In this document: piece by piece, positions 42,150 to 64,000 of the stretch
Numbering within the stretch: the first letter of the stretch is position 1
How the letters are laid out: every line of letters starts with the position of its first letter
Assembly: GCA_043812195.1 (NCBI GenBank)
Contig: JBDRML010000029.1
Span: 1-64,000 of the forward strand
Source of the DNA: Candidatus Woesearchaeota archaeon
GTDB lineage: Archaea; Nanobdellota; Nanobdellia; SCGC-AAA011-G17; PNOQ01
Direction of reading: 5' to 3'
Length of the DNA: 64,000 nt
Program-made: the position numbers and the translations under genes
The notes under the pieces: generated by a model
The model's input: only the letters and a program-made list of their open reading frames with translations
What the model was told of the DNA's origin: nothing
Databases searched by the model: none

Positions 42150-42270
42150 CTCGCGGTAGCTCAATGGCAGAGTACTCGGCTGTAGATGCTATTCGACTAG
42201 GCGCTTAGCTTTGAATGAAAAATAGCCAGCCGATCCCGAGAGGTTGTGGGTTCAAATCCCACCCGCGAGA
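42150..42270 (+). tRNA. tRNA-Tyr(GUA) with a ~49-nt anticodon-loop intron
   Basis: Acceptor CTCGCGG/CCGCGAG (C1-G72), anticodon stem CTCGG/CCGAG, CT-GTA, T arm GTGGG-TTCAAAT-CCCAC; intron stem GCTATT/AATAGC; junction 37/38 or 38/39 is uncertain. Confidence 0.92.
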
Positions 42271-42333
42271 TATTTTTTTATCTTGCCATACACCACCAAA
42301 AATGATTTATAAATAAAAATTAATGTACAATTA

Positions 42334-42993
42334 ATGAGAATCACCAAGAAGTTAGCAGAGTTATGTGGTATCATAGTTGGAGATGGTTGTATAACTTATT
42401 ATAAAAAGAATGGTGATTATAAGGTAGAAATTTTTGGAGATTATAAAGAATTAGAATATCATAGTTACATAAAAACTCTTTTCAAAGAAATATTCAATAA
42501 AGAGCCAAAAACAAAATTGAATAAAGATGGAATTTCTCTTTGCTTACATTCAAAAGAAGTCTTAGACAAATTGATAGGATTAGGTATTCCAATAGGAAAG
42601 AAAAAAGATGTAATTAGAATTCCTCCCAAAATAATGTCAAACAAAGGATTAACAAAATGTTTTATTAGAGGATTAGCCGATACAGATTTCAGTGTTTGTT
42701 TTAAAAAAGGAGGAAGAATCAAAAACTCTTATCCTAGAATTACTGTAGAAATGCATTCTAAAAAACTGATAAAAGATATAAAACTAAGTTTGGAATCTTT
42801 AGGAATTACATGCTACTACTATGAAAGAACCAGAAATACACCTTTTGGTATATTTCAATCATATAGTTTAGATATAAATGGAAACAAAAAATTTGAAAAA
42901 TGGATGAGATTAATAGGATTTAAAAATAAAAAACATCTATCAAAAATAGAATTCTGGAAGAAAAACGGATATTATCAAAAGAATTGTTCTTAA
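42334..42993 (+). CDS. free-standing two-motif LAGLIDADG endonuclease-family protein
   Basis: LAELCGIIVGDG and FIRGLADTDFS motifs, YPRI, KWMRLIGFKN; own TATA box. Confidence 0.88.
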   Translation: MRITKKLAELCGIIVGDGCITYYKKNGDYKVEIFGDYKELEYHSYIKTLFKEIFNKEPKTKLNKDGISLCLHSKEVLDKLIGLGIPIGKKKDVIRIPPKIMSNKGLTKCFIRGLADTDFSVCFKKGGRIKNSYPRITVEMHSKKLIKDIKLSLESLGITCYYYERTRNTPFGIFQSYSLDINGNKKFEKWMRLIGFKNKKHLSKIEFWKKNGYYQKNCS

Positions 42994-46077: not shown

Positions 46078-46180
46078 GCCCTGATGGTGTAGTTGGCTAT
46101 CATACGGCCCTGTCGAGGCCGTGACCCGGGTTCAAATTTCCCATAGCCTAAAAAAAGGATTGAAAGTCCCGGTCAGGGCG
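46078..46180 (+). tRNA. tRNA-Asp(GUC) with a 30-nt intron in the T loop (59/60; 46137-46166)
   Basis: Acceptor GCCCTGA/TCAGGGC, anticodon arm CGGCC-CTGTCGA-GGCCG, T stem CCGGG/CCCGG; central helix TTCA/TGAA with bulges AA^T and AG^T. Confidence 0.93.
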
Positions 46181-46228
46181 TATCTTTGCAAAAAGATGGA
46201 CTGGTAGCTCAGCTTGGTAGAGCACTTG

Positions 46229-46880
46229 AGGAGATAAGCAAAAATGAAAGTACAAATTCCAAATGAACCAACAATCAATTTAGCAGAAGAGTTCGGAATA
46301 CATATTGGTGATGGGAGTATGAACTTTTATAAAGAAAAGGGATTGGTATCTATAGCAATAAATCCAAACGAAAAAAAATATATGGATTTCATTAAAAGAC
46401 TTTATTGGAGTCTATATAAAGTAAGTGTTAACTTAAGAAATTGGAGTAGGGCATATGGATTTCAACTAAGCTCTAACGAATTGGTTGAATTCAAATATAA
46501 ACAAGGTCTCCCATTAGGAAAAAAGGAAAATATAAATATTCCTCATTGGATAAAGAAAAACGAACAATATCAAAAAGCATGTCTAAGAGGAATATTTGAC
46601 ACAGATGGTACACTGTATATTGAAAAAAAGTACAATAAACCCTATCCAAGAATACAAATTTCGAGTATATCTCAAAATTTAATTAAAGATATACATGAAA
46701 TATTAGTCAATTTGGATTTTAAAGTTAGTCTATGGAAAGAAAATTTTAGAAATAAGAACTGGAAAACAAGACATGTAATTGCCTTAAGAGGATATAAACA
46801 AGTTCAAAAATGGATGGATGAAATAGGCACTAATAATCCCAAAAATTTAGAAAAATATAATAAGCTTATCTTCAGGTGAA
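46229..46880 (+). mobile_element. BHB/BHL-type tRNA intron encoding a homing endonuclease
   Basis: Terminal stem GGAGATAAGC/GCTTATCTTC, central helix CACT/GGTG, bulges TG^A and AA^G, outer helix AGAG/CTTT. Confidence 0.88.
46244..46879 (+). CDS. intron-encoded two-motif LAGLIDADG endonuclease
   Basis: LAEEFGIHIGDG and CLRGIFDTDG motifs; ORF lies wholly inside the tRNA-Lys intron. Confidence 0.9.
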   Translation: MKVQIPNEPTINLAEEFGIHIGDGSMNFYKEKGLVSIAINPNEKKYMDFIKRLYWSLYKVSVNLRNWSRAYGFQLSSNELVEFKYKQGLPLGKKENINIPHWIKKNEQYQKACLRGIFDTDGTLYIEKKYNKPYPRIQISSISQNLIKDIHEILVNLDFKVSLWKENFRNKNWKTRHVIALRGYKQVQKWMDEIGTNNPKNLEKYNKLIFR

Positions 46881-46944
46881 GCTTTTAACCAAGGGGTCGC
46901 GGGTTCAAATCCCGTCCGGTCCACTTTTAAATTACGAGAAAAAA

Positions 46945-61324: not shown

Positions 61325-64000
61325 ATGGCAGAAAAATCAGTAGAACAAATAAAAAAAGTAATGAATAACCCAAGCCATATAAGAAACATCGCTATCGCAG
61401 CCCATATCGATTTTTTTTGAGATAAATTCTCAAAAGACGAGTGCATGGGAAATGCATAGCACCAGATTCAAGGCTCATTCTAAGAGATGGAACTATGTTA
61501 ACTGCTAAAAAATTATTTAACTTAGCAGAGAAAAAAGGAACAAAATTTGAAGAAACGAAAGACCATATAATTTATGATACTAACTCATTAAATTTAGAAG
61601 CATTTTCCCTAAACAAAACTAATGGAAAATTAGAAAAAAAACCAATACAACTAGCCTGGAAATTAAAAGGTGGGGACTTAATAAATATTAAATTAAGAAA
61701 CAATTTCAACATTTCCACAACACCAGAACACAAATATTTAGTCTTAGAAAATTTAGAGTTTACAGAAAAAGAAGCTAAAGATATAAAATTAGGAGATAGA
61801 ATAATCTGCCCAAGAAAGCTTGAAACTAATTCAAATATTAACATAAAACGCACAATTCTACTAAAATTAGCTGAAAAAAGATTTTACGTTAAAGTAAACA
61901 AAATCTTAGGAGAAAAAATAAAAAAATTCGTTCTGAAAGAAAAAGAAACAATAAAAAAAATAAACAAAGAAATAAAGTATAAATCATTTTATCATGGTTC
62001 ATGGCAAAATAGATATTTATTAAAAGACTTAATAGAAATTTCAAGTTTAATAAATATAAACTTGGAGTATTTGTATAACAATATAGAAACAATAATTTAT
62101 AGAAGCGGAGCTCAAAGAGGAAAAAGCTCGCTGCCAACAAAATTACCACAAAACTTTCAAAACTTTTATTATCTAGCAGGATTGTTTGTAGGAGATGGAC
62201 ATCATAAAAAATTCATAGTCGGAAAAAATGAGTTAAAATCTAAATTTGTAGAAATTTGCAATGAATTAGGAATAAATGTAACATATAGAAATTATGAATA
62301 CAGAACAGAAGAAATAGTAACAAACGCTACCTTATTAGAAATATTAAACTCATTATTTGATTATCCAAAAGTCAAAAAAAGCCATAATGTAAAAATATCA
62401 GAATTTCTTCTACTATCTCCAAAAAAATATTCTTCAAAATTCTTAAGAGGATACTTCGATACTGATGGATGTGTAGAAAAAAGCAGAAGAGCAGTAACAA
62501 TATCGTCTGCCAGTGATAAAATGATAGCAGATTTAAGTATGTTTTTATTAAGATTCGGTTGCATACCAATCATAGAAAAAGACAACACAATAACAATTAG
62601 TGGACAATCCATGATAAATTTTATAGCAGAAATAGGATTTGAAATTAAAGCAAAAATAGCCAAAGCAAACTCCATAAAACAAACAATAATCGGAAGCATG
62701 GTTTCAGATGTTATACCAGTAACACATAGTAACGGAATGATTTCACTACAAAAAAACTTCACCAATTCAGAAAAATTAATTAATTTTTGTGAAAAAAATG
62801 ATATCAGCATAGAAAATATAAGTAAAATATTAAGTAAAGATATCTCATACATAGAAGTAAAAGCTATAGAAACAAAAAATGAAGAATTTGTATATGACTT
62901 CACAGTAAAAGACAACCATAACTTTGCTGCAGAAGGTATGATTATTCATAATACCACATTTTCAGACAATCTTTTAGCAGGTGCAGGCATGATTTCTAAA
63001 GAACTAGCAGGTAAACAATTAGCCTTAGATTTTCACGAAGATGAGGCAACAAGAGGTATTACAATAGATTCAGCTAGCGTATCTATGCTTCACACAGTAA
63101 AGGGAGAAGATTACTTAATCAATTTAATAGACACACCAGGTCACGTAGATTTTGGTGGAGATGTTACTAGGGCTATGAGAGCAGTTGACGGTGCAATTGT
63201 ATTAGTAGATGCAGTTGAAGGAATAATGCCTCAAACAGAAACAGTTCTAAAACAAGCTCTAAGAGAAATGGTAAAACCAGTTCTTTTCATAAATAAAGTT
63301 GACCGTTTAATCAAAGAAGTTAAACTAACACCACAAGCAATGCAAGAAAGATTCATTAAAATTATATCAGACGCTAATGGGTTCATTGAAACTTTTGCAC
63401 CAGACGAATTCAAAAAGAAATGGCAATCAAACGTACAAGACGGAAGCGTAGCTTTTGGTTCAGCATTTCATAATTGGGCATTAAGTTTCCCATACATGCA
63501 AGAAAAAGGAATAAGCTTCAAAGATATTATAGATGCTTATGAAAAAGAAGATTGGAAAATTTTAGCAAAGAAAGCACCATTACATGAGGTTGTTTTGGGT
63601 ATGATAATTAAACACCACGTAAATCCAATCACAGCACAAGCATACAGAATTCCAAAAATATGGAAAGGAGATTTAGATACAGAAATAGGAAAATCTTTAT
63701 TAAATTGTGATCCAAAAGGACCTGTAGCATTTATAGTAACAAAAATAGTAATAGATAAACATGCAGGAGAAGTATCTGCAGGAAGATTATTCTCAGGAAC
63801 ATTAAAACAAGGTGATGAAGTTTGGCTTAACATGGGTAAAAAGAAAGTTAGGTTACAACAGGTATCAATTTACAAAGGCGCACAAAGAACTGCTTTTAAT
63901 GAAATTCCAGCAGGAAACATAGCAGGTTTAGTAGGATTAAAAGATACATTCGCAGGTGAAACTATATCTTCAGAACCAATGGAACCTTTCGAAGCAATTA
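61325..64000 (+). CDS. fusA: translation elongation factor EF-2, 5' part, interrupted by a 32-nt intron and a 500-aa intein; runs off the window
   Basis: Exon 1 (61325-61411) MAEK...IRNIAIAAHID; exon 2 from 61444 HGK-[intein]-TTFSDNLLAGAGMIS...RGITI...LIDTPGHVDFGGDVTRAMRAVDGA...FINKVDR. Confidence 0.96.
61412..61443 (+). other. candidate BHB pre-mRNA intron (32 nt) in EF-2
   Basis: Exon helix CCCAT/ATGGG, central helix ATCG/CGAG, bulges AT^T and TG^C, 10-bp intron stem with TAAAT loop; removal restores AHID-HGK in frame. Confidence 0.85.
61453..62952 (+). mobile_element. intein with LAGLIDADG homing endonuclease domain in the EF-2 P-loop
   Basis: Starts CIAPDS after HGK; block B TTPEHK; YYLAGLFVGDG and FLRGYFDTDG; ends VYDFTV..NHNFAAEGMIIHN followed by Thr; 1500 nt, with both ends in the same frame. 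Confidence 0.95.

What the first reader, a model, noticed from the sequence alone, without database searches (positions are those of the whole stretch)
46198..46923. tRNA-Lys gene split by a 652-nt intron that encodes a complete LAGLIDADG endonuclease
Seen: two tRNA halves that assemble into a full tRNA-Lys(UUU) flank a 211-aa LAGLIDADG ORF. The junctions form a BHL motif: 10-bp stem GGAGAUAAGC/GCUUAUCUUC, central helix CACU/GGUG, bulges UG^A and AA^G, and one extra A. The predicted cuts give an intron at the non-canonical position 30/31. The ORF stop codon lies within the splice motif, and an SD-like GGAG is sequestered in the intron stem just upstream of the ATG. Established: archaeal tRNA introns are normally short, while endonuclease-encoding BHB introns are known mainly from crenarchaeal rRNA genes. 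Inference: a mobile, homing tRNA intron whose protein may be translated from the excised, possibly circular, RNA. Standard tRNA finders would probably miss this gene.
Basis: partly seen in the sequence, partly recalled or inferred. Interest (0 to 1): 0.92.

Follow-up and report, generated by a model that had tools for sequence, protein, structure and literature searches.

The report
Homing-endonuclease intron inside archaeal tRNA-Lys gene
The only tRNA-Lys(UUU) gene of a small-genome groundwater archaeon is split in its anticodon stem by a 652-base protein-spliced intron that carries an intact homing endonuclease gene, which suggests one way that archaeal tRNA genes could acquire introns.

Summary
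Exon 1 is 46198-46228, the intron 46229-46880 (652 nt) and exon 2 46881-46923. The ORF at 46244-46879 encodes a 211-aa two-motif LAGLIDADG enzyme. Joining the exons gives a 74-nt tRNA-Lys(UUU). That tRNA occurs, letter for letter and uninterrupted, at the same tRNA-Asp/tRNA-Lys/rpoH locus in two relatives.

Of 24 same-family genomes, 23 have the 30/31 site empty and one has a 16-nt mini-intron there. The intron ends pair into a relaxed bulge-helix-bulge. The genome has one EndA gene and one RtcB gene, and no second tRNA-Lys(UUU) was found. AAA makes up 81% of Lys codons.

One metatranscriptome contig joins 46228 to 46167, which are two predicted splice sites. This fits a 62-nt circular by-product of EndA cutting.

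Related endonuclease genes sit in 30/31 introns of tRNA-Lys(CUU), tRNA-Asn and tRNA-Thr in three other DPANN genomes. Most other family members are free-standing next to tRNA genes.

Endonuclease activity, actual homing and the RNA form that is translated are all untested. Nine full-text searches found no report of an endonuclease-coding archaeal tRNA intron. I rate this a new variant of a known kind, of high interest.

The parts
46084..46136 (+). tRNA-Asp(GUC) exon 1 (upstream gene of the same transcription unit)
   Evidence: Partial Rfam tRNA hit at 46084-46144, 19.2 bits. The anticodon loop CTGTCGA was read by eye. Relatives have an uninterrupted tRNA-Asp at this place.
46137..46166 (+). 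30-nt intron in the T-loop (59/60) of tRNA-Asp
   Evidence: Relatives read GGGTTCGATTCCCGG without it. By eye the central helix is TTCA/TGAA with bulges AA^T and AG^T. The RNA contig junction falls at its 3' border. ARAGORN did not call my joined tRNA-Asp.
46167..46180 (+). tRNA-Asp exon 2
46181..46197 (+). 17-nt spacer between the two tRNA genes
   Evidence: It lies inside the RNA contig with 0 differences, so the two genes share a transcript.
46167..46228 (+). 62-nt piece (Asp exon 2 + spacer + Lys exon 1) seen in RNA with its two ends joined; probably a circular by-product of EndA and RtcB
   Evidence: run X9. One 92-nt contig with 0 other letters has record 1-38 = 46190-46227 and record 39-92 = 46166-46219. 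It 'goes back 62' with 1 ambiguous letter, so a junction 46228|46167 fits. 92 = 62 + 30 is what a 31-mer graph would give for a 62-nt circle (my inference).
46198..46228 (+). tRNA-Lys(UUU) exon 1 (positions 1-30)
   Evidence: It is identical to the 5' part of uninterrupted genes in L118 and L131.
46223..46226 (+). Exon strand (CACT) of the 4-bp central helix; it pairs with 46875-46878
   Evidence: Pair probabilities 0.26, 0.97, 0.99, 0.98.
46229..46880 (+). 652-nt bulge-helix-bulge-type intron at tRNA position 30/31
   Evidence: The borders are fixed without ambiguity by the empty alleles. DNA contigs in runs X5 and X6 skip exactly 46229-46880. No group I or II match in Rfam at E up to 1.
46230..46239 (+). 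5' strand of the 10-bp terminal intron stem; GGAG at 46230-46233 is Shine-Dalgarno-like at -14
   Evidence: The 16S 3' end reads GGATCACCTCCT, and -14 is the modal position of such cores (23 of the counted cores; 96 of 504 ORFs have one at -18..-5, against 27 of 504 in a control window).
46244..46879 (+). LAGLIDADG homing endonuclease ORF, 211 aa, two motifs
   Evidence: Pfam PF14528 at E 1.3e-9. 158 homologues were found. G22-D23-G24 is conserved in at least 90% of 33 aligned sequences, and D119-T120-D121-G122 is invariant in them. The AlphaFold2 model has pLDDT 94. Foldseek matches I-Tsp061I and I-DmoI.
46864..46873 (+). 3' strand of the terminal stem; it also encodes the last residues (K)LIF of the protein
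46875..46878 (+). Intron strand (GGTG) of the central helix; it overlaps the TGA stop at 46877-46879
46881..46923 (+). tRNA-Lys(UUU) exon 2 (positions 31-73)

Best explanation
This is the organism's single, working tRNA-Lys(UUU) gene, invaded at position 30/31 by a composite mobile element. The element is a protein-spliced (bulge-helix-bulge) archaeal intron that carries its own two-motif LAGLIDADG homing endonuclease gene.

Proposed path:
1. tRNA-Asp and tRNA-Lys are transcribed together (shown by one RNA contig).
2. The intron's two ends pair with each other and with exon bases 24-27. This presents two 3-nt bulges separated by a 4-bp helix.
3. The cell's single-subunit splicing endonuclease EndA cuts after the second base of each bulge (46228|46229 and 46880|46881). 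The cut at the 5' site fits the RNA contig; the 3' cut is inferred from the empty alleles.
4. RtcB joins the exons into a 74-nt tRNA-Lys(UUU) (inferred).
5. The released intron, linear or circular, or the precursor itself, serves as mRNA through the GGAG at -14 (inferred).
6. The enzyme cuts intron-less tRNA-Lys DNA across the 30/31 site, and repair copies the intron in (inferred from the distribution of empty, occupied and mini-intron alleles).
For: Borders and identity:
- The joined exons are called tRNA-Lys(ttt). They occur exactly and uninterrupted in L118 (G021) and L131 (G012).
- The order tRNA-Asp, tRNA-Lys, rpoH is kept in relatives.
- 23 of 24 family genomes are empty at 30/31 and 1 of 24 has a 16-nt intron there. 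Of the 9 same-order genomes where the gene was found, 8 are empty (one judged by eye) and 1 has a 47-nt intron.

The gene is needed:
- No other UUU anticodon arm or 3' half was found in G000, which is 90.4% complete.
- AAA is 11900 of 14664 Lys codons in ORFs of at least 300 aa.

Splicing:
- Pair probabilities of 0.88-0.99 for 6 of the 7 central and outer junction pairs (0.26 for C46223-G46878).
- A terminal helix this long arose in 5 of 20000 shuffles.
- The three other endonuclease-bearing introns fold the same way with different stem sequences.
- One EndA gene (181 aa, both Pfam domains) and one RtcB gene are present.
- The RNA contig joins 46228 to 46167.

Enzyme. Both differences in the ORF in an independent metagenome contig leave the protein unchanged.

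Mobility:
- Related endonuclease genes lie in 30/31 introns of tRNA-Lys(CUU) (L032), tRNA-Asn(GUU) (L001) and tRNA-Thr(UGU) (L003).
- The tail of P0003 (72% identical) is the translation of GGTGAA plus tRNA-Lys(UUU) exon 2.

Not an assembly artefact: L156 and L157 come from two other metagenomes, and four DNA runs from four studies hold at least 84% of the sampled words.
Against: - No RNA shows the mature junction, the excised intron or its circle. The RNA evidence is a single contig of depth 3.7.
- The junction is not a strict bulge-helix-bulge. A46874 faces the 5' bulge, and the minimum-energy fold prefers a shifted pairing around the 5' site.
- No same-species empty allele was seen. The empty alleles belong to other species or genera, so recent mobility is not shown. 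The closest endonuclease among the 60 relatives is only 45% identical.
- The near-identical target in the genome's own tRNA-Lys(CUU) gene (1 difference within -11..+11) is unoccupied. That would fit an inactive or very specific enzyme.
- The four intron-borne endonucleases do not form one clade. The tree needs 4 changes, which is no better than shuffled labels.
- The assembly is 90% complete, so a second gene cannot be fully excluded.
Confidence: 0.85

Rival explanations
1. The intron came first. A short, ORF-less 30/31 intron already sat in the gene, and a free-standing tRNA-associated LAGLIDADG gene later inserted into its loop. On this view the element is a recent chimera, and the short introns at this site are ancestors, not relics.
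For: Most of the family is free-standing beside tRNA genes: in 51 of 80 loci a tRNA starts a median 26 nt after the stop. Short 30/31 introns with the same first bases and the same GTGAA end exist in G006 and G026, and in tRNA-Asn of L070. The ORF fills the intron from just after the stem to inside the splice motif.
Against: In the midpoint-rooted tree the intron-borne genes lie outside a well-supported crown clade (99% SH-aLRT) of 61 rows, none of them intron-borne (45 upstream of a tRNA gene, 14 in other contexts, 2 of unknown context). This fits intron-borne forms being the older state at least as well. The root is not established. The shared intron ends are forced by pairing with the exon, so they do not show direction.
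Confidence: 0.3
2. The intron is fixed and immobile. It is still spliced, but the endonuclease no longer homes. It is kept by chance, or because it has gained a host-side role such as helping the large intron fold (a maturase-like role).
For: The near-cognate tRNA-Lys(CUU) site in the same genome is empty. No same-species polymorphism was seen. LAGLIDADG maturases exist; bI3 maturase is among the fold matches.
Against: Both catalytic-motif aspartates (D23, D121) are present in the window's protein (D121 invariant, D23 in at least 90% of the 33 aligned sequences), and the fold is complete at pLDDT 94. The two differences in strain variants are silent. The patchy distribution (1 of 25 in the family) argues for recent gain.
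Confidence: 0.25
3. The gene is disrupted and dead. The insertion destroyed it, and the working tRNA-Lys(UUU) lies in the unassembled 10% of the genome.
For: The assembly is 90.4% complete in 45 contigs.
Against: This is the conserved locus where all 24 family relatives keep their tRNA-Lys(UUU). The exons are 100% identical to working genes of relatives. The junction keeps splice geometry. The RNA junction sits exactly at the 5' splice site. This genome and its relatives carry many other non-canonical tRNA introns.
Confidence: 0.04
4. It is a self-splicing group I or II intron, or an assembly chimera.
For: Group I introns with LAGLIDADG genes do occur in archaeal rRNA genes (PMC6125680, passages read).
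Against: Rfam gives no intron match at E up to 1. The ORF takes 636 of the 652 bases, leaving no room for a ribozyme core. The same structure was assembled in L156 and L157 and is held by four DNA runs.
Confidence: 0.01

Closest known systems
LAGLIDADG-encoding bulge-helix-bulge introns of crenarchaeal rRNA genes (I-DmoI, I-Tsp061I, I-ApeI and relatives)
   Same: Spliced by the tRNA splicing endonuclease at a bulge-helix-bulge junction. They carry a monomeric two-motif LAGLIDADG gene, and the excised ORF-bearing intron is stable as a circle (PMC4496867 and PMC3326292, passages read). The model here matches I-Tsp061I (TM 0.71/0.73) and I-DmoI (target-normalised TM 0.74).
   Different: The host gene here is a tRNA, at position 30/31 of the anticodon stem, in a mesophilic DPANN archaeon. 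Sequence identity to those enzymes is only 16-18%. The closest structures by sequence profile are intein endonuclease domains.
Short non-canonical archaeal tRNA introns (Thermoproteales, ARMAN, other DPANN)
   Same: Relaxed bulge-helix-bulge junctions at positions outside 37/38, several introns per gene, and an EndA with broad specificity (PMC5829648, passages read). This genome and its relatives have many of them.
   Different: In the passages I read, those introns are not described as carrying an ORF, and the way they spread is called unknown (PMC4090602, passage read). That they are only tens of bases long is my recollection. This intron is 652 nt and brings its own DNA endonuclease.
Bacterial group I introns in tRNA genes, some with homing endonuclease genes
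   Same: A mobile intron with an endonuclease gene in the anticodon region of a tRNA gene (PMC3984707, passages read; the Synechocystis tRNA-fMet example is recalled, not seen).
   Different: Those are self-splicing ribozymes. This intron has no ribozyme and depends on host EndA and RtcB.
Chloroplast trnK(UUU) group II intron encoding MatK (recalled, no call)
   Same: The same tRNA species is split by a large ORF-bearing intron.
   Different: That is a group II ribozyme intron at another position, the protein is a maturase, and there is no relation by descent.
Free-standing homing endonuclease genes
   Same: Most relatives of this ORF stand alone next to tRNA genes.
   Different: This copy has no promoter of its own. 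It lies wholly inside the intron.

Membership tests
Archaeal bulge-helix-bulge (EndA-spliced) intron | Two 3-nt bulges on opposite strands separated by a 4-bp helix, flanked by helices | tested here: met
   Central helix 46223-46226 / 46875-46878; bulges TG^A and AA^G; outer helix GAG/CTT; 10-bp inner stem. It is a relaxed form: A46874 is an extra base opposite the 5' bulge, and the first central pair has probability 0.26.
Archaeal bulge-helix-bulge (EndA-spliced) intron | Cuts after the second bulge base reproduce the exact uninterrupted gene | tested here: met
   The joined exons equal the uninterrupted genes in L118 and L131. 23 of 24 family genomes are empty at this point.
Archaeal bulge-helix-bulge (EndA-spliced) intron | Splicing endonuclease and RtcB ligase encoded by the host | tested here: met
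   EndA at C3:1706-1966, a 181-aa ORF with PF02778 and PF01974. RtcB at C8:182-1417, E 1.2e-144.
Archaeal bulge-helix-bulge (EndA-spliced) intron | Cleavage and ligation seen in RNA | tested here: inconclusive
   One RNA contig joins 46228 to 46167, which fits cuts at the Lys 5' site and the Asp 3' site. Neither the mature Lys junction nor the intron circle was covered.
Archaeal bulge-helix-bulge (EndA-spliced) intron | Structure kept through sequence change in homologous introns | tested here: met
   L001, L003 and L032 fold with central helices CGAC/GTCG or CACT/GGTG and with inner stems of unrelated sequence. There are too few sequences for a formal covariation test.
LAGLIDADG homing endonuclease (monomeric, two-motif) | Two LAGLIDADG motifs, each ending in an acidic residue | tested here: met
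   HIGDGS (D23) and IFDTDG (D121). D119-T120-D121-G122 is invariant and G22-D23-G24 is kept in at least 90% of 33 sequences.
LAGLIDADG homing endonuclease (monomeric, two-motif) | Family profile match | tested here: met
   PF14528 at 38.6 bits against a cut-off of 22.5. PDB profile hits to intein endonuclease domains and to 2dch.
LAGLIDADG homing endonuclease (monomeric, two-motif) | Two pseudo-symmetric alpha-beta-beta-alpha-beta-beta-alpha domains | tested here: met
   The model has pLDDT 94 and pTM 0.91, with the expected order of helices and strands twice. Foldseek finds 47 matches at E up to 0.001, and the rows listed are LAGLIDADG-fold proteins.
LAGLIDADG homing endonuclease (monomeric, two-motif) | Site-specific DNA cleavage of the intron-less allele | not testable with these tools
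   Needs purified protein.
Mobile (homing) intron | Occupied and empty alleles of the same site among relatives | tested here: met
   DNA contigs in runs X5 and X6 skip exactly 652 bases. All of these come from other species, not the same population.
Mobile (homing) intron | Related endonuclease at the homologous site in other hosts or genes | tested here: met
   L001 (Asn), L003 (Thr) and L032 (Lys CUU), all at 30/31. P0003 tail.
Group I / group II self-splicing intron | Ribozyme core | tested here: not met
   No Rfam match at E up to 1. Only 16 non-coding bases remain in the intron.

The most novel reading that the evidence does not exclude
Homing by intron-borne LAGLIDADG endonucleases is a general way in which archaeal tRNA genes gain non-canonical introns. 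On this reading the many short ORF-less introns of DPANN tRNA genes are what remains after the endonuclease gene decays, as in the 16-nt and 47-nt introns at the same 30/31 site. By extension this could also apply to the 'transposing' introns of Thermoproteales.

In addition, a DPANN-wide family of about 220-aa LAGLIDADG genes appears to be specialised on tRNA genes in three ways: inside introns, inside or duplicating tRNA promoters, and overlapping tRNA 3' ends.
Probability: 0.35. Interest if true: 0.9.

Novelty: new variant of a known kind. Interest (0 to 1): 0.78.

Why it matters
How archaeal tRNA introns arise and move between genes is an open question. A 2014 review calls the mechanism of intron transposition "still unknown" (PMC4090602, passage read). 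A 2023 meeting report still treats such introns as transposable elements without naming a mechanism (PMC10714607, passage read).

An intact homing endonuclease gene inside a protein-spliced tRNA intron makes that question testable with ordinary biochemistry, because empty, occupied and mini-intron alleles of the same site are all in hand.

There is a practical side as well. Default tRNA finders miss the only tRNA for the commonest codon of this genome. tRNA counts and completeness estimates for DPANN genomes are therefore too low where such introns occur.

Tried and rejected
- Default ARAGORN on the window: 0 genes.
- Rfam at gathering and at E up to 1: no tRNA or intron family on 46198-46923. 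The only hit there was a chance tmRNA match to the 3' half at 13.9 bits.
- Group I/II intron reading: rejected (no room for a ribozyme).
- Second tRNA-Lys(UUU) in G000: none by a pattern with 3 mismatches or by my own regular expressions. The two other regex hits are AT-rich chance matches without a tRNA body.
- Close orthologues among 60 relatives: none; the best is 45% identical.
- Metagenome scan: only two contigs of the same organism.
- Viral contigs: 20 distant relatives at 36% identity or less, nothing informative.
- RNA: no RNA holder listed. The RNA run that was laid covers only 46135-46228, so it says nothing about the mature junction, the intron, its circle or expression of the ORF.
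- Tree: the four intron-borne genes are not one clade and the root is unknown, so the order of events stays open. 16 loci whose best match lay on the minus strand of the stored locus, 3 duplicate loci and the short or truncated ORFs were left out.
- ARAGORN did not call my joined tRNA-Asp. I keep that gene on the strength of the Rfam partial hit, the anticodon loop and the relatives' uninterrupted copies.
Only P0003's site could be inferred, from its protein tail.
- Supplements of papers were not opened. The supplementary tables of PMC6125680 and PMC5829648 might list DPANN tRNA genes relevant to the novelty claim.
- Literature: nine full-text searches found no paper describing an endonuclease-coding archaeal tRNA intron. 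Subscription journals are largely outside that library.
Full report
**What is there.** The window is contig C29 (bases 1-64000) of a 938-kb, 45-contig assembly with 29% G+C, rated 90.4% complete and 1.4% contaminated. Homologues of its proteins are labelled Pace-, Woese- and Nanoarchaeota, so it is a DPANN archaeon. The runs that hold the stretch are groundwater metagenomes.

Read directly, the finding is exact:
- 46198-46228 is the 5' part of a tRNA up to position 30.
- 46881-46923 is the rest, with anticodon loop CTTTTAA.
- Between them lie 652 bases.
- The ORF at 46244-46879 (211 aa) takes 636 of those 652 bases.

Joined in a script, the exons are called tRNA-Lys(ttt), 74 nt. Default ARAGORN finds nothing in the whole window. 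The Rfam tRNA model misses the gene (31 tRNA hits in the genome, 26 above cut-off, none on this gene). ARAGORN with long introns allowed finds the shell but misplaces the intron.

**The borders are fixed by comparison, not only by folding.** A 32-base pattern from exon 2 found a tRNA-Lys(UUU) in all 24 same-family genomes and in 9 of 36 same-order genomes. The other 27 had no match to this pattern and were not examined.

In the family genomes the gene sits in the same order as here: tRNA-Asp, tRNA-Lys, rpoH. The state of the 30/31 site is as follows:
- 23 of 24 family genomes run straight through it.
- One (G006) has a 16-nt intron there.
- Of the nine same-order genomes, eight are empty (one judged by eye because my pattern missed it) and one (G026) has a 47-nt intron.

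Two relatives (L118/G021, L131/G012) contain the window's spliced tRNA letter for letter. The bases on either side of each border differ, so the intron is 46229-46880 without ambiguity. The genome's own tRNA-Lys(CUU) at C1:13680-13754 has the same body.

**The splice structure.** Folding the 726-nt precursor brings the intron ends together.
- Central helix 46223-46226 with 46875-46878: probabilities 0.26, 0.97, 0.99, 0.98.
- Outer helix: 0.88-0.94.
- Terminal stem: 46230-46239 with 46864-46873.

The canonical reading gives bulges TG^A and AA^G with cuts after the second base, which is exactly where the empty alleles place the borders. The motif is relaxed. A46874 lies opposite the 5' bulge, and the minimum-energy fold shifts a few pairs there. 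A terminal helix this long arose in 5 of 20000 shuffles and in 0 of 572 internal windows.

The genome encodes one splicing endonuclease and one RtcB. The endonuclease is 181 aa with both Pfam domains. By size it is the single-subunit type, which a paper links with disrupted tRNA genes in DPANN lineages (PMC5829648, passages read).

**The gene must work.** No other tRNA-Lys(UUU) was found. AAA is 81% of Lys codons and 78 per 1000 codons in long ORFs.

**RNA.** No RNA run is listed as a holder. One metatranscriptome run from the same study as the best DNA holder gave a single 92-nt contig with no differences. Its bases 1-38 match 46190-46227 and its bases 39-92 match 46166-46219. One letter is ambiguous, so the junction can be 46228|46167.

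46228 is the last base of Lys exon 1. 46167 is the first base of Asp exon 2, just after a 30-nt T-loop intron (46137-46166) that I had placed independently from the relatives' uninterrupted tRNA-Asp. The piece between is 62 nt, and 62 + 30 = 92 is what a 31-mer graph returns for a circle (my inference).

I read this as a ligated by-product. It supports co-transcription of the two genes and EndA cutting at the predicted 5' splice site. It is one contig at depth 3.7. The mature junction and the intron were not covered.

**DNA runs.** Contigs in two runs skip exactly 46229-46880. They carry about 5 differences per flank, so they belong to other species. An abundant organism in the best holder (depth 242) carries the 16-nt mini-intron form.

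Two other metagenome contigs carry the same element. One has two base changes in the ORF that leave the protein unchanged, plus a 1-base deletion in the Asp intron. The other is identical over the part it covers.

**The protein.**
- Pfam LAGLIDADG_3 at E 1.3e-9.
- 158 homologues, mostly about 221 aa.
- Two motifs with conserved aspartates D23 and D121.
- A profile hit to intein endonuclease domains and to I-Tsp061I.
- A confident model, pLDDT 94 and pTM 0.91, whose best fold matches are a VMA intein endonuclease domain, I-Tsp061I, PI-PfuI and I-DmoI.

GGAG at 46230-46233 is 14 bases before the ATG. The 16S rRNA ends in the matching CCTCC. In this genome such cores peak at -14.

**Relatives of the element.** A scan of one genome per species found 375 relatives of the protein, and the best 80 were kept. 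Their settings were as follows:
- 3 of 80 have a tRNA shell spanning the ORF.
- 51 of 80 have a same-strand tRNA starting a median 26 nt after the stop.
- 26 of 80 have neither. Several of these overlap the 3' end of a tRNA on the other strand.

The three spanning cases resolve to tRNA-Asn(GUU), tRNA-Thr(UGU) and tRNA-Lys(CUU). Each has the endonuclease intron at 30/31 and a second small intron at 38/39. Their precursors fold with the same kind of junction but with different stem sequences.

P0003 is 72% identical to the window's protein. It ends in a tail that is the translation of GGTGAA plus tRNA-Lys(UUU) exon 2, so it sits at the same site. In a quick maximum-likelihood tree of 101 proteins the intron-borne genes fall outside a well-supported crown clade (99% SH-aLRT) of 61 rows, none of them intron-borne (45 upstream of a tRNA gene, 14 in other contexts, 2 of unknown context). 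They are not one clade, and the root is only a midpoint.

**Mechanism and rivals.**
- Shown: the gene, the borders, the junction geometry, the host enzymes, the enzyme fold, the allele series, and one RNA junction.
- Inferred: exon ligation, translation of the ORF, DNA cleavage and homing.
- The main open alternative concerns history, that is, whether the endonuclease gene entered an older short intron. The other is present activity: the near-cognate tRNA-Lys(CUU) site in the same genome is empty.
- A dead gene, a ribozyme intron and an assembly artefact are each contradicted by several results.

**Comparison with what is known.** Protein-spliced archaeal introns with LAGLIDADG genes are known from rRNA genes (PMC4496867, PMC3326292 and PMC6125680, passages read). 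Short ORF-less non-canonical tRNA introns are known, and their mode of spread is described as unknown (PMC4090602 and PMC10714607, passages read). Endonuclease genes in tRNA introns are known for bacterial group I introns (PMC3984707, passages read).

Nine full-text searches found no report of an endonuclease-coding archaeal tRNA intron. The library lacks most subscription journals, and supplements were closed, so prior mention cannot be excluded.

**Verdict.** This is a real feature and a new variant of a known kind. Confidence is 0.85 that it is a spliced, endonuclease-bearing tRNA intron. That it is mobile now is inferred, and I put it at about even odds. Interest is 0.78.

Noticed in passing
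window 46084-46180: tRNA-Asp(GUC) with a 30-nt intron in the T-loop (46137-46166, position 59/60). It is missed by ARAGORN and scores only 19 bits with Rfam. 15 of 24 family relatives instead carry a T-loop intron in tRNA-Lys(UUU).
   Followed up: partly
window 46167-46228: RNA contig with the two ends of this 62-nt inter-intron piece joined. It is probably a circular by-product of splicing a two-tRNA precursor.
   Followed up: partly
L006, L010, L022, L026-L031, L034, L039, L040, L044, L052, L057, L061, L064 and others (about 1501-2200 in each): Free-standing members of the same endonuclease family end a median 26 nt before a tRNA gene. Their last codons spell a TATA-like AAAACTTATAA, and a similar TTTATAAA lies about 25 nt before their ATG. 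The cassette therefore looks as if it sits in the tRNA promoter and duplicates it.
   Followed up: partly
L009, L037, L054, L056, L062, L078, L079, L099: Other family members converge on a tRNA gene of the opposite strand, and their last codons overlap its 3' end.
   Followed up: no
G000 C29:98755-99495, C29:75472-76179, C29:110252-109590, C25:1364-567, C26:3723-4802, C45:66572-65664, C1:25694-24543, C17:35984-34701: At least eight LAGLIDADG ORFs of this genome are preceded by a conserved element of the form GGTCGACAAGGTCGACAACCACC ... TTTATAAA. Three of them (the three C29 ORFs listed) read into the 5' end of a tRNA gene. The genome has 29 LAGLIDADG_3 matches in all, many of them inside inteins.
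   Followed up: partly
window 42150-42993: An intron-bearing tRNA (42150-42270, 58 bits) is followed after 63 nt by a second LAGLIDADG ORF (42334-42993, 219 aa, PF14528 at 4.7e-9).
   Followed up: partly
window 61441-63999: A long ORF that runs off the window holds a LAGLIDADG_3 match at 62434-62637. It is probably an intein.
   Followed up: no
L070 about 2150-2310: tRNA-Asn of an Aenigmarchaeota genome has several introns, including a 28-nt intron at 30/31 with central helix CGAC/GTCG. An endonuclease ORF reads into its 5' end.
   Followed up: partly
G000 C1:13680-13754: The tRNA-Lys(CUU) gene differs from the empty UUU target by one base within 11 bp either side of the insertion point, yet it has no intron.
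   Followed up: no
G000 whole genome: Only 26 tRNA hits score above the Rfam cut-off in a 90%-complete genome. Many genes carry one to three introns at non-canonical positions, for example a 3/4 intron read by eye in C25:371-567.
   Followed up: no
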